A stretch of 52,145 nt of DNA, from assembly GCA_046861645.1 (NCBI GenBank), contig JBHHUM010000009.1, positions 1 to 52,145 on the forward strand. Reading direction: 5' to 3'. Made by a program: the position numbers. This DNA comes from Fidelibacterota bacterium. GTDB lineage: Bacteria > Fidelibacterota > Marinisomatia > Marinisomatales > UBA2128. Positions 56 to 15,000 of the stretch are shown one piece after another; the first letter of the stretch is position 1, and each line of letters starts with the position of its first letter.

Positions 56-3000
56 CCACAGGTTCGAGTCCTGTCCGGGGTACAGGATGCTACGGAGTTT
101 CTTTCTACTGGTCACCATCTAATGAGTCAGTTATACCTTTCAGCCGATCATTAGAAAGTAATGTTGGTATAAAATCTATTACTGTATGACAATGTTACCT
201 GGAAAACAAGTCAGGATAAAATTAATGGTAAAACAGAGAATAATTATTCCAAACAGTTACTAATCTTTGCTCTAAAAGGGTAAGCAGCAGAAACGCTAAA
301 AAAGATTATTCCAAGTAACTTTGAATAACATGTTGCATCAGACCCTGAAGTCTGGCAAATCTTGCGCTGATCATGGTGGTGATATTCTTCATAATTATGA
401 ATCCCAGATTTCTATCGTCATCACAAAGTTTCCTGATTTTATCAGTCTGTAATCGTAGCAGTTGGGTGTAGCCATTAGCATAGGCTGAAAGGGTATATTT
501 ATACGGTTTTGTGAAGGCAGACCATCCTAGAGACCCCTTTTCCTTGATAGTATCTAGAGTTAAGATCATTGGAGCGTTCAAGTGGTTCACCGAAAATTTC
601 AGTTTCACCTCTCCCGTGCCTACGATGTACATATAATCTGCATTGTCTCCAGCGTTGAATATTTTTTCCCCATCTTGAAACTCTACAGCCTCTCCTATTT
701 TTACTATTTTTTCTAATTCTTGGGAATTTATTTTACTAAAAACGCTTGATTCCCTTATTAAATCAATCATAATTCCTTCTCCTGTATTCAATGAAATTTT
801 TCATGGAATATTTTCTAACATAGGTCAAATCTGTGAAAAATTTTCTTCTTTGAGCCCCTCTTTATGGAATAGTTTCATCTGGTTGACTGAAGACCTTAAT
901 GTAGTCCACGAGATAGTCAACCTGATATCGTTTTAAGGTGTTCCCCCACGCTGGCATGATCACCGATTTATTTATCCCTCTACCGCCCTGAACGATGACT
1001 TCAGCCAACCGTTCAGAAGAGAATGCTTTCATGTAATCCCGATCACTGAGATCACGCGGTCGAGGAGTAAGATTGTAAGAATTGAACCCGTCACCTCTAC
1101 CTGATACTCCATGACAAACTGCACAATATTTATTGTAAAGATAGGCACCCTGTTGCTGTTCGTAGGTTAATTTACTACTGATCACAAAAGACTCAGAAAG
1201 ATTCTTTTCGGGGATCTTATTATAGCTGCAGCCTGGCCAGCTTACCAGTAGTACAAGAATCAGGAAAGATGACATTGCTCTCATTCTGCTTCTTCCAGAC
1301 TCATGATGTACGCAGTGATCTGTTTCGCTTCCATATCCGTGAGTCCTTGGTTGGGATCAATAGTATCCGGACGGTAATATTGAGGATTTTTCATCCAGGA
1401 ATATATCCAGCCAGGTTTTGATCTTTTGGCGGTTTCGTTTAGAGGAGGTCCTACATATCCGCCTTTTCCGTTGATCTGATGACACGATTGACAACCGTAA
1501 ATTTCGAATAATAACTTTTCCCCCTGTTTAATCATTTTTGGTTCATTGAGAGGGATATCAATACTATCAATATCATCATCGAGAAAGACAGTATTTATAT
1601 AGTTAGCTGTGAATTTCATCTCTGCTTCGCTCATAAAAAGATTGGGCATGCGTTCGGTGAGGGTTGGCCTTAGAGTATAGGGGATTTTGAAATAATTTCG
1701 TAACCAGGAGTGATATACTCGACTCCCTTCCAGACTCAGGTCTGTAGCCAGAAGAAAGCCACTATTTTGAATTTTATGACAAGTAAAACAGGCATATTTA
1801 TTGATAATGCGACCGAACTCTCCCTGGGGTACGTAGTGGTCATGTTCTTTGTCTTTGTGGACGAGATATTTATCAGGTATTTCCTCCTTCCTTAGGGAAA
1901 GAAGAGCACTAGTAACAGCTCGAATTTCTTCATCGGAAAAACCGAAATTGGGCATACGCGAATTAGTTAAAAAATGCTTTGGATTCTTAATTTTGTGATA
2001 AACGTATGAAGGTCTCGTTTCCTCAATTTCAGCTTCCCCAAATTCCATTTCAATCTGAGGTCTGCTACCGACGTAAGACAGATCCGGCCCCATGTTTCTT
2101 TCCACTCCTGCAACGGAAAGTTCATGACAGCCCAGGCAGTTATAATTGTTGAATAGTTTCAGTCCTTTTCGATAATAGTCAGGATCAGGAATATGGGACA
2201 AACTGGTTGTATCTTCTTCTAAATCCCACTCTTTGAATTCACTCAGGATGTAGGCGGCTACAGCAATGGCATCTTTTTTTGAAAAACCGTACTCAGGCAT
2301 GGGAACCCCGGGATGTAAACCTTTGGGATTTCGTATATAGTTGTATATCCAGATAGGGGTGACAGCGGAAGCGATCTGACCTATTTCAGGCGCCAGATGA
2401 CCGCCTTTTCCGTTTATTTGATGACAGCTGATACAGCGAGCTTCACGTACACGTGTTTTTCCCAGGTCAACAAGCTTTTCATCCGGCCACTCCTCTTGGA
2501 GAGCATCTGGTAAAGGCTCTAACTGCATTTCCTCTGGATACTGATTGAAGGTCATAAGGAAGTCGGTGAGGATCTGAATCTCTTCATCAGTCAAATTAAA
2601 GTTCGGCATTTTGGTATCTGGCTGAACTTTTCGGGGATCCTTTAACCAACGAACCAACCATTGTCTGGTAGTCTTTTTCCCAATACCGTCCAAGCTGGGG
2701 ACAAATTCTGGAGTATAACCCGGTAAATTATGACAAGAGACACAATTGTATTGCTGGATCAGCTGCCTTCCTCTTGATAAAATGGGGGCATCCTGTACAT
2801 CTTGATCTTTGTGGCAGACACCACATGCAGCTTCAATAAAGTATAGGGGTAGCATGGGGTCATCCCAGAATTCTACCTCACCGATGGATTCTTCTACACT
2901 GGTGGCGATTCCTTGTCCGTGATGGCAGACTGTGCAACCAAATTCTTCAGGATCATGAAACATTTTAGGGTGCGGGCGAAATGGCTCGGACATATCCACC

Positions 3001-12000: not shown

Positions 12001-15000
12001 CTGTCCCTCCGTTCCACCGATTTCTCCGAGGCCACCTAATTTGTACGTAACTCTACCATAGATATCTTTGGCGGTATTTACGTCAAAATTATCAACATCA
12101 TTTTGTCCATTAGCAAAGCCCACTGTATAGGTGAAACCTCCAGTTCCTCCAGCGCCGTTACCGGCACCCCAAAGTTCAATACCTCCACCAGAACCGTCCC
12201 GTAAGCGCCAGGTACCAGATTGATTTTTTAAATCTTCCACATTATAATGTGTACTTGTCAGGCGACGGCCTTCTGGGGAAGCACTGAGTCCCACTGAACC
12301 GAACTTGAGGTGCATCAATGGACTGAAATCATATTGTAGAGCAAATGAATAGGCCAGTTCTTCCGCGTGTTCGAGCTCGACTTCACCAAAGAATGAGATA
12401 TCTTCACCGATGGCCCCACCGTAAAACAGTTCAAACTCATGAGGAATCTCAAAATAAAGAGCTTTGTCATCCTCAACAACAGTGGAGGTGGTCGGATCGT
12501 CCCATGATCCCCCATAATAGACTCGTCCGAAGCCGTGGACAGAAAGTGGTGAAGTACCCGGGATGTTAGCCGGCCAGATCGCATCGGGAAAAACTCGTTT
12601 GTAGCCCTCGGAACCCAGACTTACTGGTTCCTCTTTCGTCATTTCAGGATCCTGACCTTCCGGGTAGCGATATCCATTATTGCGAAAAGCTTTCCCAAAA
12701 GCATTCAACTTTGGGTAGGCGTAATGACAGGTAGAACAACTTGTCTTGTACTTTCTAGAGAAGCTGGGAATGCTTAATGCTTGAGTAGGAAGCAACATCA
12801 TATAAACAAATGCCAAACTGACAATAATTGAGAAAAAACTAACGACAGACTTTTTCATTATAGTCCTCCTTTTGATTTATCCCCTAATATTAGTCAAAAA
12901 GCGTGCCAGAAGAAAAAATGCCGCATTTTAGAAACACTTTCGAGAGCAATAAGTTGTTAGTGATAAGTATTTTCAGTTTAGACTGCAACATAAATGGTAG
13001 CAGTTTTATGTATTTACGTTGCACTTGAACGCATTAATTCATAAATAATTTATTTCTGAATCAAGATAAAACTAGAAAAAGGGGAGAGAGCAGTTAATTG
13101 ATTTATATTCGGGTGCTTTTTAGCCTGTTTAATTCATCAGCCGCCAAGTTCGCGAAGTTTCACGAAGAGAAAACAAAAAAGTCCACAGAAATCCTGTTGG
13201 AAGATAATTTTCAATCATAATGCTCATATCTGCTATATTATCTATAATTTGCGAATCTTTGCGTTCCTCGTGGCGAATAATCCAGGTTAGTACCTCGCCA
13301 TTAATCTTTGTTTTTAAGAGAAGGGGAGAGGAGGAAATGATCAGGTAGTGCGGAATTCTTCTGATCTGATTTTATGCTTTCTCATCAGTCGTTGAAAACT
13401 CTGTCTTTCGATGTGGGCCTTTTTAGCTGCTACAGTAACATTACCATTCGTCAAACTTAGCAGGTGTTTAACGAACTGTTTTTCAAAGGCATCGATTATT
13501 TCGGTTCTGATTTCTCTCAGATTGAGATTATTGTGGACATGATCAGATTCAAAGAACCTTTTGAAAGGAAAAGTAAATTTATGACGAGATAAGGATTGTT
13601 TTTCTTTAAGGTACTCCGGGAAAGATTCAAAAGTCAAAACATCACCTCTTTCTCTGGTGATGCAATATTCCAGTATATTCTGCAATTCACGCACATTGCC
13701 GGGATAGTTGAAATCCATTAAAAAATCCATTACCTCTTTAGAGATGACTTTAACTTGCTTATGGAGGATGCGATTGTATCTTGATAGAAAGAATTCGGCT
13801 AACAAAGGGATGTCCTCTCGACGGTTACGTAATGGTGGAAGAATAATCGGAATGACCTGTAAACGATAGTAGAGGTCTTTACGGAAAGTACCGGCTTTTA
13901 ACATTGTTGACAGGTCTTTATTGGTAGCGGTAATAAATCGTGCATCAACGTTAATTTTTTTGTTTCCACCGATACGCTCGAAAGTCCTTTCTTCCAGAAC
14001 CCGTAGCAGTTTCTGTTGCAGATGGAGAGGCATATCTCCAATTTCATCCATGAAAATAGTTCCCGATTTAGCGACCTCGAATTTTCCTAATTTCTTTGAA
14101 GTGGCACCGGTAAAAGCTCCCTGTTCATATCCGAAGAGTTCACTTTCGAGGAGAGCCTCGGGCAGTACTGTACAGTTGATGGCGATAAATGGATCACGGT
14201 TATTCTCGCCTGCGTTATGGATGGCCTTGGCTACTAATTCCTTTCCAGTGCCACTCTCGCCAGTGATAATGACATTGGTAGTATTGGGTGTTAGTGCAAT
14301 AGCGCCAATTTGCTTGAATACCTCCTGCATGAGTGGGTGATTCCCAATAATTTCATCTTTTTGATCTGGATGATCTAAGGCTGCTTTGAGATCGCTTACT
14401 TCCTGTTGCAGCCTTACCATTTCTATGGCGTGTTTTGCTACCACTCGCACCTTTTCTACATCAAGCGGCTTAGTGATGTATTCATAAGCACCTAATTTCA
14501 TGGCTTCAATGGCAGTCTGCATGGTCCCATAACCAGTGATTACGACGATTGGAGTTTTTATACCGGATTTCTTTACTTCTCTTAAAACGGATAAGCCATC
14601 TCTCTTGGGCATGGCAATATCAATGAAAGCTAAATCTGGACGTTCGTTCCGGAGGGTATGCAGAGCCTTTTCCCCATCGGGGGAGGTGACCACGGAATAA
14701 TTGTAGTCCTCGAAAGTTCGTTTAAAGGCAAAGATGATATTTTCATCATCATCGGCGATAAGTATTTTAGGGCTAGGCATAAGCACTGTTTCCCGCAGCT
14801 AAGGGAAGAATGATAGAGAGACAAGCTCCTGATTTATCAATGTTCTCGGCGAGAATAATGCCACCATGTTCAGAGACTACCCGTTTTGCCATGGATAACC
14901 CCAGTCCAGTGCCATCTAGTTTTGTGGTAAAAAAAGGATCAAAGATTCTGTTCAGGTTCTTTCGGGGGATACCAGAACCAGAATCTGAAATACGCAGGGA

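What a model noticed while it worked through the whole genome (the two positions that open the first line are those of the whole stretch)
306..12858. Cyc2-type fused cytochrome-porin heads a copper/bc respiratory operon in a Marinimicrobia genome
A 432-aa protein without any Pfam/NCBIfam/Swiss-Prot match (g02041, C165:11560-12858, minus) carries the defining Cyc2 motif (IPSFSRKY-x3-CSTCH-x3-PKL) in front of a predicted 16-stranded beta-barrel, and is the first gene of a 13-gene same-strand run with three cupredoxin/CuA-like proteins, a NapH/NosH-like FeS membrane protein, an SfrB-like NAD(P)H oxidoreductase, a Rieske/cytochrome b6-type complex and c-type cytochromes. Boldest reading: this SAR406/Marinimicrobia bacterium oxidises dissolved Fe(II) at its outer membrane (or otherwise exchanges electrons with extracellular iron) and feeds the electrons through copper proteins both downhill and, through the bc complex and the SfrB-like en [...]
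Evidence so far: Alignment of 24 homologues: invariant P31,R35,K36,Y37,C41,C44,H45,P49,L51 = AxPxFAR[K][Y]..CxxCH..PxL, the motif that Keffer et al. 2021 (PMC8406198, passages read, call 80) give as unique to Cyc2. AlphaFold model has 16 long beta strands after residue 105, C-terminal ...QFNFAF. Atlas neighbours include Porin_O_P clusters. Gene order from genes.tsv/pfam.tsv. Found in only 6 of 151 Fidelibacterota genomes at E<=1e-20 and not in G004, the one same-genus genome of that sample; contig starts with tRNA-Arg. Paper searches 'Cyc2'+'Marinimicrobia' (4 papers, 3 looked at: none links them; calls 73, 75, 81, 82) and 'SAR406'+'cyc2'. The contig belongs to this genus: C165:18.1-22.6 kb matches the three [...]
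(Added by a program. Inside this text positions count along the whole contig: contig position 1 is position 1 of the stretch shown here. "Call 12" and the like, gene names such as g00115 and contig names such as C1 are that model's own, and its searches are not shown. The text may have been shortened before it was handed on; [...] marks where a part breaks off. The agent that wrote the report below was given it as the finding of a first reader that could run no searches.)

Follow-up and report, generated by a model that had tools for sequence, protein, structure and literature searches.

The report
Cyc2 haem-porin respiratory operon in Marinimicrobia
A SAR406/Marinimicrobia-group bacterium carries an outer-membrane haem-pore of the type iron-oxidising bacteria use, wired through copper proteins to two unusual inner-membrane electron-transfer modules; the gene family and the core operon also occur in other uncultured bacteria, and iron oxidation itself remains untested.

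Summary
ORF 11560-12858(-) encodes a 432-aa protein with a signal peptide, one haem site (IPSFSRKY-x3-CSTCH-x3-PKL) and a confidently modelled 16-strand porin barrel. It is homologous to Zetaproteobacteria and Acidithiobacillus Cyc2-type proteins. It falls on the 'FARKY' side of the family, which I infer to be Cluster 3, the cluster whose function its describers call most uncertain.

It heads a 13-gene run behind a conserved sigma-54-type site and a histidine kinase/NtrC-type regulator pair. The run has three modules:
- Cyc2 plus a type-1 copper cupredoxin.
- A CuA / NapH-like / zinc-ribbon / CuA-cytochrome c insert, whose relatives sit beside NXR-type molybdoenzymes in Planctomycetota/Brocadiaceae-labelled contigs.
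- A Rieske/cytochrome b6/five-helix subunit IV/octahaem complex with its own NAD(P) flavoprotein, nearest the anammox Kuste4569 and Kustd1480 complexes.

Modules 1 and 3 recur across many phyla. This scan noted that core module before in at least 11 other genomes. Cyc2 homologues in FCB heterotrophs are already published.

New here are the Marinimicrobia host, the three-module build, and an in-place swap of the cyc2 gene alone. Inward Fe(II) electron flow is the best reading (about 0.5) but is untested.

The parts
11560..12858 (-). Cyc2-family fused monohaem cytochrome-porin (432 aa), inferred Cluster-3 type
12894..12908 (-). Sigma-54-type promoter-like site TGGCACGCTTTTTGA, starting 50 nt before the cyc2 ATG
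   Evidence: A near-identical site lies at -47 in the closest operons. rpoN is present in the genome.
10869..11456 (-). Periplasmic type-1 copper cupredoxin with a C-terminal CarboxypepD_reg-like domain (cupPC)
   Evidence: Ligands H87, C125, H128 and M131 are kept in 98-100% of 65 sequences. It lies next to the Cyc2 relative in 70 of 79 loci.
10115..10657 (-). CuA-type cupredoxin with N- and C-terminal hydrophobic segments (insert module)
   Evidence: Motif C121-x3-C-x3-H-x2-M.
8600..10090 (-). NapH/Fer4_5-like polytopic iron-sulfur membrane protein (insert module)
8360..8569 (-). Small Cys-rich zinc-ribbon-like protein, 69 aa (insert module)
   Evidence: Conserved together with the module.
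7416..8363 (-). CuA cupredoxin fused to a monohaem cytochrome c, like caa3 oxidase subunit II (insert module)
   Evidence: Best PDB match is 2yev_B.
5501..7429 (-). GltD/PRK12771-like NAD(P)-FAD-FeS flavoprotein with a C-terminal 2x[4Fe-4S] domain
   Evidence: Present in 49 of 79 loci.
4860..5333 (-). Rieske [2Fe-2S] protein, b6f-like, box II CPCHGSIF
   Evidence: Best PDB matches are 9rk4 and 9rk3.
4017..4757 (-). Cytochrome b6-type subunit (4 predicted helices)
   Evidence: (NCBIfam ExtP 264 bits, cut-off 290).
3314..4024 (-). Subunit IV-like membrane protein with 5 predicted helices
1281..3260 (-). Membrane-anchored octahaem cytochrome c (8 CxxCH)
862..1284 (-). Monohaem cytochrome c (140 aa)
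306..791 (-). cNMP-binding-domain protein without a DNA-binding domain, last gene of the run
   Evidence: 77% identical copy at the same place in G242 and 68% in L240.
13341..14786 (-). NtrC-type sigma-54-dependent response regulator
   Evidence: Upstream of the Cyc2 relative in 60 of 79 loci.
14773..17184 (-). Sensor histidine kinase (Cache-HAMP-PAS-HisKA-HATPase)
   Evidence: Present in 53 of 79 loci.
13108..13289 (.). About 180-bp repeat element in the regulator-cyc2 spacer
   Evidence: Copies on C42 (96%), C53 (97%) and C173 (98%) of the same genome.

Best explanation
The locus is an accessory respiratory operon under sigma-54 and two-component control. It connects the outer membrane to the quinone and NAD(P) pools.

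Shown or strongly inferred from sequence:
- Cyc2 is a Sec-exported monohaem cytochrome fused to a 16-strand porin.
- Its invariable neighbour is a periplasmic type-1 copper cupredoxin. A paralogue of that cupredoxin sits between the housekeeping Rieske/b complex and an aa3-type oxidase elsewhere in the genome.
- Behind it lie two inner-membrane modules: a CuA / NapH-like / CuA-cytochrome c set, and a Rieske/b6/subunit IV/octahaem complex with its own NAD(P)-FAD-FeS subunit.

Inferred mechanism:
- Dissolved Fe(II) enters the Cyc2 pore and reduces the haem.
- The electron passes to the cupredoxin and the c-type cytochromes.
- From that high-potential pool it goes downhill to the aa3-type oxidases, which yields energy.
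- It also goes through the octahaem and the high-potential Rieske centre into the dedicated Rieske/b complex, where it is coupled with the NAD(P) flavoprotein branch to the quinone pool. This is the anammox-type bifurcation run in either direction.

The organism would be a lithoheterotroph, not an autotroph.
For: Family membership:
- phmmer gives L082 (Mariprofundus sp.) E 1.7e-16 and L104 (Acidithiobacillus sp.) E 7.8e-08. These E-values are for a set of 119 motif-bearing ORFs.
- hhalign of the 86-sequence profile against L082 gives probability 99.6% over 351 columns. Against a Cluster-1-like Zetaproteobacteria protein (L158) it gives 97.9% over 128 columns.
- The 16-strand barrel is confirmed.

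Functional precedent: one member of each Cyc2 cluster oxidises Fe(II) in vitro (Keffer 2021, sections 12-13 read).

Coupling:
- The cupredoxin lies next to the Cyc2 relative in 70 of 79 loci and the regulator in 60. The flavoprotein is present in 49, Rieske in 45 and cytochrome b in 44; many loci are cut by contig ends.
- The Cu ligands are conserved.
- Two Cyc2 types only 34% identical occupy the same slot behind the same promoter in otherwise 70-93% identical operons.

High-potential wiring:
- The Rieske protein is nearest Kuste4569 and Kustd1480 (E 1e-19 and 5e-17). It has the Ser/Phe pattern of Kustd1480, whose measured potential is +335 mV.
- Relatives of the NapH-like/CuA pair sit beside NXR-type Mo enzymes in 3 of 4 distant loci scanned. 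Lucker 2013 describes cupredoxins and a zinc-finger protein in the conserved NXR cluster (passages read).

Sinks and source:
- The genome has two COX1 genes and aa3 assembly genes.
- The only runs holding the DNA are labelled hydrothermal vent metagenome. They come from one study, which is probably the source, so this is not independent support.
Against: - There is no experiment or expression data for this gene or its subfamily.
- The protein is on the inferred Cluster-3 side, where Keffer 2021 says function is most uncertain.
- Hosts of the operon are mostly heterotrophs, and no RuBisCO was found here.
- The operon is absent from 3 of 3 same-genus genomes, and tight orthologues occur in only 4 of 401 phylum genomes, so it is dispensable.
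- A Rieske/b complex normally oxidises quinol, which fits outward flow equally well.
- The literal PXFAR motif has Ser for Ala.
- The role of the flavoprotein in anammox complexes is itself only a proposal (Hauser 2025, passages read).
Confidence: 0.5

Rival explanations
1. Outward conduit. Quinol (and/or NAD(P)H) is oxidised by the dedicated Rieske/b complex. The high-potential electron leaves through the octahaem, cytochrome c, the cupredoxin and Cyc2 to a soluble extracellular oxidant such as chelated Fe(III), Mn(III)-ligand complexes or humic-type quinones. This would serve when oxygen is scarce.
For: - Quinol oxidation is the normal direction of Rieske/b complexes (Hauser 2025 introduction).
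- NCBIfam places the cytochrome b, subunit IV and multihaem c nearest ExtP, ExtQ and ExtS, which NCBIfam describes as belonging to a selenite/tellurite reduction operon.
- Marinisomatota MAGs were reported with FeGenie porin-cytochrome homologues read as metal reducers (PMC10809760, passages read).
- The hosts are heterotrophs with plentiful reductant.
Against: - Every characterised Cyc2 member works as an Fe(II) oxidase.
- Type-1 Cu, CuA and a Ser/Phe Rieske centre point to potentials too high to reduce Fe(III) oxides at neutral pH.
- A single haem behind a narrow pore cannot touch solids (Keffer 2021).
Confidence: 0.2
2. The core is chiefly an NAD(P)H generator of the kind proposed for anammox bacteria. 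Quinol is bifurcated to NAD(P)+ and to a high-potential sink. Cyc2 and the cupredoxin only tune or vent the redox state of the periplasmic pool.
For: - The subunit set matches that of Kuste4569-4573 and Kustd1480-1485: a b6-type cytochrome b, a five-helix subunit IV, an octahaem and an NAD(P) subunit.
- The Rieske protein is nearest to those two.
Against: - This reading does not explain why a Cyc2-type porin and its cupredoxin head the operon in most loci.
- It does not explain why some loci keep Cyc2, the cupredoxin and the CuA/NapH module without the Rieske/b complex (L239, L241).
- A heterotroph has easier routes to NAD(P)H.
Confidence: 0.15
3. Inward conduit for a donor other than Fe(II): another reduced soluble species, a partner cell or a cathode-like surface mediator.
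For: - Cyc2 homologues occur in an electrode-oxidising organism (McAllister 2020, figure legend).
- Keffer 2021 allows further functions for the family.
- The sensor kinase's ligand is unknown.
Against: No alternative substrate has been shown for any family member. The pore model restricts access to small solutes.
Confidence: 0.1
4. Not respiratory: iron acquisition, redox sensing or metal detoxification at the cell surface.
For: The operon is accessory. A cNMP-binding protein ends it. A second, divergent haem-porin in the genome follows an ArsR-type regulator.
Against: A dedicated Rieske/b complex with ten more c-haem sites and an NAD(P) flavoprotein is a heavy investment for sensing or uptake. 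Synteny is conserved across phyla.
Confidence: 0.05

Closest known systems
Cyc2 fused cytochrome-porins (A. ferrooxidans Cyc2, Mariprofundus Cyc2PV-1, Leptospirillum Cyt572)
   Same: Signal peptide, one CxxCH, the upstream P-x-F-[A/S]-R-K-Y motif, the downstream PxL, a 16-strand porin barrel and a length above 365 aa. There is sequence homology to Zetaproteobacteria and Acidithiobacillus-labelled proteins. Cyt572's mature N-terminus YPGFARKYNF (quoted in PMC13741234) is of the same FARKY type.
   Different: Ser replaces Ala in the motif. The barrel is only remotely similar to Cluster 1 and 2 proteins. The host is a Marinimicrobia heterotroph. The downstream partners are not Cyc1/cbb3 or rusticyanin/aa3. 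No activity is known.
Acidithiobacillus ferrooxidans rus and petI operons
   Same: The logic is the same: an outer-membrane Cyc2, a cupredoxin, CuA and c-type carriers, and a Rieske/b complex with an NAD-binding accessory gene. sdrA is described as such in PMC10654088. Here all of this lies in one operon.
   Different: I tested no orthology beyond Cyc2. No oxidase subunit I lies in this operon. The complex is the b6/octahaem type, not bc1. The NAD(P) protein is a GltD-like FeS flavoprotein, not a short-chain dehydrogenase.
NAD(P) oxidoreductase-bearing Rieske/cytochrome b complexes of Kuenenia stuttgartiensis (Kuste4569-4574, Kustd1480-1485)
   Same: A b6-type cytochrome b, a five-helix subunit IV, an octahaem c in place of cytochrome f, and an NAD(P) subunit in the cluster. 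The Rieske protein is nearest 9rk4 and 9rk3 and has the Ser/Phe pattern of Kustd1480.
   Different: There is no HAO-like partner and no anammoxosome. The complex is joined to an outer-membrane haem-porin and a cupredoxin. The hosts are non-anammox heterotrophs.
Accessory copper/iron-sulfur genes of periplasmic NXR gene clusters (anammox, Nitrospira, Nitrospina)
   Same: Relatives of the NapH-like protein (39-62% identity) and of the CuA cupredoxin lie beside NXR-like Mo, FeS, NarJ-like and EB_dh genes in L248, L250 and L252. Lucker 2013 lists two cupredoxins and a zinc-finger protein in that conserved cluster.
   Different: No molybdoenzyme is present here.
Published Cyc2-like genes of FCB-group heterotrophs (SWIR vent MAGs, PMC9769843; DeMMO Ignavibacteriales and Zixibacteria, PMC8478452)
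   Same: Same subfamily. Contigs from isolates with the naming of those studies (Dive96: L007, L047; DeMMO: L014, L021) encode proteins 43-54% identical to this one.
   Different: In the passages I read, those papers list Cyc2 presence only. They do not describe the operon and do not list Marinimicrobia. I did not see their supplements.

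Membership tests
Cyc2 fused cytochrome-porin (criteria of Keffer 2021 and FeGenie) | Length of at least 365 aa with an N-terminal signal peptide | tested here: met
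   432 aa. Hydrophobic segment 5-23 and modelled helix 2-22. No dedicated signal-peptide predictor was run.
Cyc2 fused cytochrome-porin (criteria of Keffer 2021 and FeGenie) | Single CXXCH haem-binding site | tested here: met
   C41STCH45 is the only CxxCH. C41, C44 and H45 are invariant in 86 sequences.
Cyc2 fused cytochrome-porin (criteria of Keffer 2021 and FeGenie) | PXFAR[Q/K][T/Y] motif just upstream of CXXCH | tested here: inconclusive
   The sequence is P31-S-F-S-R-K-Y37, so Ser stands for Ala and a literal pattern match fails. P31 and Y37 are invariant and F33 and R35 are at least 90% conserved in 86 sequences. Orthologues at 66-70% identity read PAFARKY. The spacing to CxxCH equals that of L082 Mariprofundus sp..
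Cyc2 fused cytochrome-porin (criteria of Keffer 2021 and FeGenie) | PXL downstream of CXXCH | tested here: met
   P49-K-L51, with P at H+4. P49 and L51 are at least 90% conserved.
Cyc2 fused cytochrome-porin (criteria of Keffer 2021 and FeGenie) | 16-strand beta-barrel porin fused C-terminally | tested here: met
   16 strands in a model of pLDDT 89.9. Foldseek matches OmpF, OmpC, Omp32 and OprP.
Cyc2 fused cytochrome-porin (criteria of Keffer 2021 and FeGenie) | Sequence homology to Cyc2 of iron-oxidiser lineages | tested here: met
   The comparison proteins come from MAG contigs labelled Mariprofundus, Zetaproteobacteria and Acidithiobacillus, not from the biochemically tested proteins themselves.
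Cyc2 fused cytochrome-porin (criteria of Keffer 2021 and FeGenie) | Score above the FeGenie Cyc2 HMM cut-off, and placement in the published tree | not testable with these tools
   The FeGenie HMMs and the figshare alignment are not available here.
Cyc2 fused cytochrome-porin (criteria of Keffer 2021 and FeGenie) | Fe(II) oxidation by the protein | not testable with these tools
   Needs biochemistry.
Cyc2 Cluster 3 | Branches with Cluster 3 references rather than Cluster 1 or 2 | tested here: inconclusive
   In the 87-row tree the deepest split (SH-aLRT 99 on both sides) puts P0001 with 59 other rows, all of the RK type where read. These include Zetaproteobacteria L082 and L151 and Nitrospira. 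The FARQT rows on the other side hold Zetaproteobacteria whose haem site is like the CLSCH of PV-1 (L107; and review passage) and Acidithiobacillus. No labelled Cluster 3 reference such as Cyt572 was in the tree. The assignment rests on McAllister 2020 saying Zetaproteobacteria hold Clusters 1 and 3 and on Cyt572's FARKY N-terminus.
NAD(P) oxidoreductase-bearing Rieske/cytochrome b complex (anammox type) | Split b6-type cytochrome b plus subunit IV with five helices | tested here: met
   Pfam and NCBIfam matches. 4 and 5 hydrophobic segments by a crude hydropathy scan. The five helices are stated for the anammox complexes in Hauser 2025.
NAD(P) oxidoreductase-bearing Rieske/cytochrome b complex (anammox type) | Hexa- or octahaem cytochrome c in place of cytochrome f/c1 | tested here: met
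   8 CxxCH and an N-terminal anchor in the 659-aa protein.
NAD(P) oxidoreductase-bearing Rieske/cytochrome b complex (anammox type) | NAD(P)-FAD-FeS subunit encoded in the cluster | tested here: met
   Pyr_redox_2, Fer4_20 and 2x Fer4 domains; PRK12771 at 458 bits. Conserved in 49 of 79 loci.
NAD(P) oxidoreductase-bearing Rieske/cytochrome b complex (anammox type) | Rieske protein related to Kuste4569/Kustd1480, with high potential | tested here: inconclusive
   The best PDB matches are 9rk4 and 9rk3, ahead of the cyanobacterial b6f proteins. The Ser/Phe pattern is as in Kustd1480. The potential itself is not measurable here.
NAD(P) oxidoreductase-bearing Rieske/cytochrome b complex (anammox type) | Flavoprotein physically bound to the membrane complex | not tested
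Nitrous-oxide reductase / haem-copper oxidase (considered for the CuA proteins) | Catalytic subunit (NosZ propeller or oxidase subunit I) in the operon | tested here: not met
   Only the CuA domains match, far below the curated cut-offs. No COX1 lies in the window; the two COX1 genes are on C67.

The most novel reading that the evidence does not exclude
The operon is a three-module machine that lets an abundant marine heterotroph lineage harvest electrons from dissolved Fe(II) at vents.
- A swappable Cyc2 'socket' hands electrons to a plastocyanin-like cupredoxin.
- An NXR-type CuA/NapH-like module and an anammox-type Rieske/b-flavoprotein complex then couple these high-potential electrons to the quinone and NAD(P) pools by reversible electron bifurcation, without using complex I.
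- This would be a general solution for living on high-potential donors, shared by iron, nitrite and anammox metabolisms and spread by gene transfer.
Probability: 0.2. Interest if true: 0.8.

Novelty: new variant of a known kind. Interest (0 to 1): 0.55.

Why it matters
Cyc2 is used as the marker gene for microbial iron oxidation, but most homologues sit in uncultured heterotrophs where nobody knows what they do. This locus gives the marker a context: a fixed copper partner, a dedicated regulator and promoter, and two back-end modules otherwise seen in organisms that live on high-potential donors (anammox, nitrite oxidisers).

If the chain runs inward, SAR406/Marinimicrobia cells at vents would supplement heterotrophy with Fe(II). 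The disputed NAD(P)-linked Rieske/b mechanism would also gain a second, independent biological setting in which to test it.

If it runs outward, 'Cyc2 = iron oxidation' calls in metagenome surveys are unsafe for this whole subfamily.

The clean exchange of the cyc2 coding region behind a conserved promoter suggests that the outer-membrane part behaves as a replaceable cassette.

Tried and rejected
- Complex prediction of Cyc2 (residues 28-432) with the cupredoxin (residues 19-195): 'no answer', median score 0.30 against a mark of 0.32. I take nothing from it.
- Sequencing runs: no RNA holder is listed. The 4 holders are DNA runs of one sample and one study, which is probably the source.
- The search for related loci with the broad alignment A2 failed because it had no conserved stretch. 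I replaced it with a degenerate motif scan.
- Sigma-70 promoter and terminator scans over 1-13400 were no better than shuffles: 28 found against 29.4 expected, and 13 against 11.4.
- Misbinning or foreign origin. The operon's GC is 42.3% against a genome mean of 43.0%. Its tetranucleotide correlation is 0.956 against a mean of 0.938 for random chunks. The flanking genes are syntenic with same-genus genomes. I rejected misbinning; a within-phylum accessory block remains likely.
- Reading the CuA proteins as a hidden NosZ or oxidase was rejected, because no catalytic subunit is present.
- Autotrophy: no RuBisCO. Other carbon-fixation pathways were not searched.
- Literature. 'cyc2' with 'marinimicrobia' found 4 papers. 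For the 3 listed I read passages, and none links the two. 'cyc2' with Marinisomatota, Fidelibacterota or SAR406 produced one co-occurring paper with no link. A six-term search (Cyc2, Ignavibacteria, Rieske, cupredoxin, Zixibacteria, Calditrichota; at least three required) found no description of the operon. Supplements and the figshare trees were not seen, so such hits may be listed there.
- The strict sigma-54 pattern is found upstream of cyc2 in only 7 of 78 loci across phyla. A relaxed pattern is found in 21 of 78 against about 7 expected. The promoter claim is therefore firm only for this lineage and its nearest relatives.

Full report
**1. The observation**

ORF 11560-12858 on the minus strand is open and encodes 432 residues. 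It has a hydrophobic N-terminus and a single CxxCH. It matches no Pfam or NCBIfam model.

The N-terminal region reads LSIPSFSRKY-KTS-CSTCH-YAY-PKL. Keffer et al. 2021 (PMC8406198; passages and sections 12-13 read) give AXPXFAR[Q/K][T/Y] upstream of CXXCH and PXL downstream as the family consensus. They used length >=365 aa, CXXCH and PXFAR[Q/K][T/Y] as screening criteria. Here Ser stands at both Ala positions of the consensus, one of them inside the PXFAR pattern used for screening, so a literal pattern match fails. Orthologues at 66-70% identity read AIPAFARKY. P31, Y37, C41, C44 and H45 are invariant in an 86-sequence alignment reaching down to 26% identity.

An AlphaFold2 model built on that alignment has mean pLDDT 89.9 and pTM 0.85. 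It has 16 long strands after residue 105. Foldseek finds 16-strand general porins first, with OprP (2o4v) at rank 30. OprP is the porin named by Keffer as the structural match.

**2. Link to bona fide Cyc2**

No named reference sequence was available. I therefore scanned one genome per species for the back-translated motif P-x-F-A-R-[Q/K]-x4-C-x2-C-H. Among them were contigs labelled Mariprofundus, Mariprofundaceae, Zetaproteobacteria, Acidithiobacillus, Chlorobiaceae and Nitrospira.

119 motif-bearing ORFs were extracted.
- P0001 matches L082 (Mariprofundus sp.) at E 1.7e-16 and L104 (Acidithiobacillus sp.) at 7.8e-08. These E-values are for that small set.
- The family profile aligns to L082 with hhalign probability 99.6% over 351 columns, that is through most of the barrel.
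- It aligns to a Zetaproteobacteria protein of the other type (L158) with 97.9% over 128 columns.

A quick maximum-likelihood tree had 87 rows: P0001, 17 database relatives and the 69 ORFs of 365-560 aa. The 50 shorter, longer or cut ORFs were dropped. The tree splits with SH-aLRT 99 on both sides.
- The FARQT half holds Acidithiobacillus, plus a Zetaproteobacteria/Rhodocyclales group.
- The RK half holds L082, L151, Nitrospira and P0001's clade.

A 2026 review (PMC13741234, passages) gives PV-1's haem site as CLSCH, which is seen in L107 of the FARQT group. It gives Cyt572's mature N-terminus as YPGFARKYNF. McAllister 2020 (PMC7029218, passages) says Zetaproteobacteria carry Cluster 1 and Cluster 3 genes. 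I therefore infer that P0001 is a Cluster-3-type Cyc2. This is an inference, since no labelled Cluster 3 reference was in the tree. Keffer states that Cluster 3 function 'may be considered most uncertain'.

**3. How common is the family**

- The word-indexed search gave 998 hits at E<=0.001 among the 8000 candidates scored. Every named hit among the 120 listed is a 'hypothetical protein' of Fidelibacterota, Ignavibacteria, Calditrichaeota, Latescibacteria or unclassified 'bacterium' MAGs.
- A profile search of 1.84 billion representatives found 3405 clusters at E<=0.001 and 291 at <=1e-30.
- In a sample of 401 genomes of the window's phylum, 55 have a match at E<=1e-10. Most of these are other haem-porins that match in the cytochrome domain only. 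By my count from the table, 13 match at <=1e-20 and 4 at <=1e-130 (G000, G015, G156, G353). None of 3 same-genus genomes has a match.

Cyc2-like genes in FCB-group heterotrophs are already in print. PMC9769843 (passages) lists Calditrichota, Eisenbacteria, Gemmatimonadota, Bacteroidota and others. PMC8478452 (passages) reports Cyc2 in DeMMO Ignavibacteriales and Zixibacteria, and says Cluster 3 dominates at those sites. Contigs with those studies' isolate names (L007, L047, L014, L021) encode proteins 43-54% identical to P0001.

I found no main text that links Cyc2 with Marinimicrobia, SAR406, Marinisomatota or Fidelibacterota. PMC10809760 mentions Marinisomatota among MAGs with FeGenie porin-cytochrome homologues, read as metal reducers. 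Supplements were not seen.

**4. The operon**

Thirteen genes follow on the same strand, with gaps of -14 to 211 nt. Their content is:
- A cupredoxin with type-1 Cu ligands and a CarboxypepD_reg-like tail.
- A CuA-type cupredoxin with hydrophobic ends.
- A NapH/Fer4_5-like protein with many hydrophobic segments.
- A 69-aa Cys-rich zinc-ribbon-like protein.
- A CuA domain fused to a monohaem cytochrome c. Its best PDB match is Thermus caa3 subunit II, 2yev_B.
- A GltD/PRK12771-like NAD(P)-FAD-FeS protein with two extra [4Fe-4S] motifs.
- A Rieske protein.
- A four-helix cytochrome b6.
- A five-helix subunit IV.
- An anchored octahaem cytochrome c.
- A monohaem cytochrome c.
- A cNMP-binding protein.

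Upstream on the same strand lie an NtrC-type sigma-54 activator and a Cache-HAMP-PAS histidine kinase. The site TGGCACGCTTTTTGA starts 50 nt before the cyc2 start codon.

A TGGCA[C/T]-N5-TTG[A/C]-type site lies 47-125 nt before cyc2 in 7 of 9 related loci checked. Several are duplicates of earlier loci: L224 is the same contig as L239, and L241-243 are the same as L031, L038 and L035. That leaves 6 of 8 distinct loci, plus the window. In the two closest operons the site is near-identical to the window's. Across all phyla the strict pattern is found in 7 of 78 loci, against about 0.5 expected. rpoN is present in the genome.

**5. Conserved core and variable insert**

tblastn of the window's proteins against the 79 loci that hold P0001 relatives gave these counts:

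| Gene | Loci with a match (of 79) |
|---|---|
| Cupredoxin | 70 |
| Regulator | 60 |
| Kinase | 53 |
| Octahaem c | 52 |
| Flavoprotein | 49 |
| Monohaem c | 46 |
| Rieske | 45 |
| Cytochrome b | 44 |
| Subunit IV | 43 |
| CuA-cytochrome c | 6 |
| CuA cupredoxin | 4 |
| NapH-like | 3 |
| Zinc-ribbon protein | 3 |

Many loci are cut by contig ends, and hits anywhere within the locus were counted. The hosts by record title include Ignavibacteria, Calditrichota, Bacteroidales, Zixibacteria, Eisenbacteria, Gemmatimonadales and Acidobacteriota.

The window therefore holds a widespread core: kinase, regulator, Cyc2, cupredoxin, flavoprotein, Rieske/b6/subunit IV, octahaem and cytochrome c. A four-gene insert sits inside it. 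The cupredoxin's ligands H87, C125, H128 and M131 are kept in 98-100% of 65 sequences.

This scan noted the same core module earlier in at least 11 other genomes. I saw those notes after and reached the same comparison independently. They are AI notes, not independent evidence.

**6. The Rieske/b module**

The Rieske protein's best solved relatives are 9rk4 (E 1e-19) and 9rk3 (5e-17), ahead of the cyanobacterial b6f subunits. Hauser et al. 2025 (PMC12954380, passages) identify these as Kuste4569 and Kustd1480. They are the Rieske subunits of the two Kuenenia complexes that carry a putative NAD(P) oxidoreductase, a b6-like cytochrome b, a five-helix subunit IV and a hexa- or octahaem c. Their measured potentials are +303 and +335 mV.

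The window's box II is CPCHGSIF. It has the Ser/Phe pattern of Kustd1480.

Those authors support the Kartal proposal. In it quinol oxidation is bifurcated, with one electron going to a high-potential acceptor and one to NAD(P)+. That is a proposal, not a demonstrated activity.

The genome has a second, housekeeping Rieske/b6/subunit IV set with a 1002-aa multihaem protein on contig C67. It is followed by a paralogue of the cupredoxin (33% identity, E 7e-26, ligands kept) and by aa3-type oxidase and haem A genes. A second COX1 is also present.

**7. The CuA/NapH insert**

Relatives of the NapH-like protein were found in 18 loci. The closest, at 70-85% identity, are labelled Candidatus Neomarinimicrobiota, which also confirms the phylum. 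I examined 15 of these loci.
- 14 have a CuA cupredoxin relative next to the NapH-like gene.
- 6 have a Cyc2 relative upstream (L239-L243, L246).

L239 and L241 combine Cyc2, the cupredoxin and the insert without a Rieske/b complex nearby. So the front end is found with either back end, or with both.

In 3 of the 4 distant loci scanned with Pfam (L248 Planctomycetota, L250, L252 Brocadiaceae-labelled; not L253), the pair lies beside other genes. These are a large molybdopterin subunit, a Fer4_11 subunit, a NarJ-like chaperone and an EB_dh-domain protein fused to a CuA domain. L252 also has an SCO1 gene. That is the make-up of periplasmic NXR clusters. PMC8387239 describes NXR-C as EB_dh-like (passages). 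[quoted passage not shown]

**8. History of the locus**

The operon's composition matches the genome. Genes at 18.1-20.8 kb are syntenic with all three same-genus genomes at 62-80% identity. Those genomes lack the operon and its regulators. So this is an accessory block of about 17 kb, next to tRNA-Arg at the contig end.

The closest operon is L240 (Neomarinimicrobiota). Its identities to the window's proteins are:

| Protein | Identity to window (%) |
|---|---|
| Cytochrome b | 93 |
| Rieske | 85 |
| Flavoprotein | 85 |
| NapH-like | 84 |
| Regulator | 83 |
| Octahaem c | 83 |
| Cupredoxin | 75 |
| Cyc2 | 34 |

G115 and G242 show the same pattern. By domain, the cytochrome part of Cyc2 is 64% identical and the barrel 30%. 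Against an Ignavibacteriales protein the figures are 83% and 64%.

The promoter-like site is conserved across the swap. The cyc2 coding region alone has therefore been exchanged in one of the lineages. A 180-bp repeat with three other copies in the genome lies in the spacer upstream.

**9. Mechanism and odds**

- The architecture is well supported.
- The direction of flow and the substrate are not.

I favour inward flow from Fe(II), at about 0.5, for these reasons:
- Every characterised family member is an Fe(II) oxidase.
- The carriers look high-potential.
- Both back-end modules have their nearest described counterparts in organisms that handle electrons from high-potential donors.
- Oxidases are available as sinks.
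- The genome probably comes from a vent sample (not independent).

Against this reading:
- The Cluster 3 uncertainty.
- Heterotrophic hosts.
- The operon is dispensable.
- Quinol oxidation is the normal direction of Rieske/b complexes.
- There is no expression or biochemical evidence of any kind.

The rival readings are outward flow to soluble oxidants (0.2), an NAD(P)H generator with Cyc2 as a vent (0.15), other donors (0.1) and non-respiratory roles (0.05).

**10. Verdict**

- The gene is a new member of a known family in a phylum where I found no printed report.
- The operon is a variant of the Cyc2 pathway that I did not find described in the papers searched, although this scan has met its core repeatedly.
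- Specific to this window are the three-module build and the cassette-like cyc2 exchange.
- Interest is moderate, at 0.55.

Noticed in passing
window 13108-13289: A repeat of about 180 bp lies in the spacer between the regulator gene and cyc2. It has copies at 96-98% identity on contigs C42, C53 and C173 of the same genome. It may be a small mobile element sitting where an enhancer site for the sigma-54 activator would be expected.
   Followed up: partly
G000:C43 (L228:10000-11394, +): A second, divergent haem-porin of 464 aa (YPGFGKK...CNQCH..FPKL) that matches P0001 mainly in the cytochrome domain. It lies directly after an ArsR-type regulator gene, with a 308-aa cytochrome c gene about 1.3 kb upstream.
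   Followed up: partly
G000:C67 (L227:1535-19852): The housekeeping chain: Rieske, cytochrome b6, subunit IV, a 1002-aa multihaem cytochrome, then a paralogue of the operon's cupredoxin (33% identity, Cu ligands kept), two Rrf2 regulators, aa3-type oxidase genes, CtaA/CtaB and a second COX1. A plastocyanin-like carrier with a CarboxypepD_reg tail may be the usual link between the Rieske/b complex and the oxidase in this lineage.
   Followed up: partly
window 29138-51385: A starch/glucan utilisation block: a CBM20/CBM53 protein and an FG-GAP protein with type IX secretion sorting domains, a PorV-like protein, a TonB-dependent receptor, an alpha-amylase, a GH57 enzyme, a phosphorylase, a TrmB regulator and a sodium:solute symporter. 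This fits a heterotrophic lifestyle.
   Followed up: no
window 26748-28971: A carbamoyltransferase (607 aa) followed by a small SxtJ-like protein. The role of the pair is unknown.
   Followed up: no
L250 (record labelled Undinarchaeales archaeon), L001, L003, L058, L069: Several record titles look wrong for their content. One contig labelled as a DPANN archaeon carries an NXR-like cluster with the NapH-like/CuA pair and NirD-like genes. Contigs labelled Alphaproteobacteria, Bacteroides sp. or Bifidobacteriaceae carry the FCB/Acidobacteria-type Cyc2 operon. Automatic MAG labels should not be used for host range.
   Followed up: no
L223 (G242:C1), locus positions 12305-12666: In a same-order genome the slot of the CuA/NapH insert holds only fragments: 41% of the CuA cupredoxin and 9% of the CuA-cytochrome c. 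This suggests the insert was lost there by deletion.
   Followed up: no
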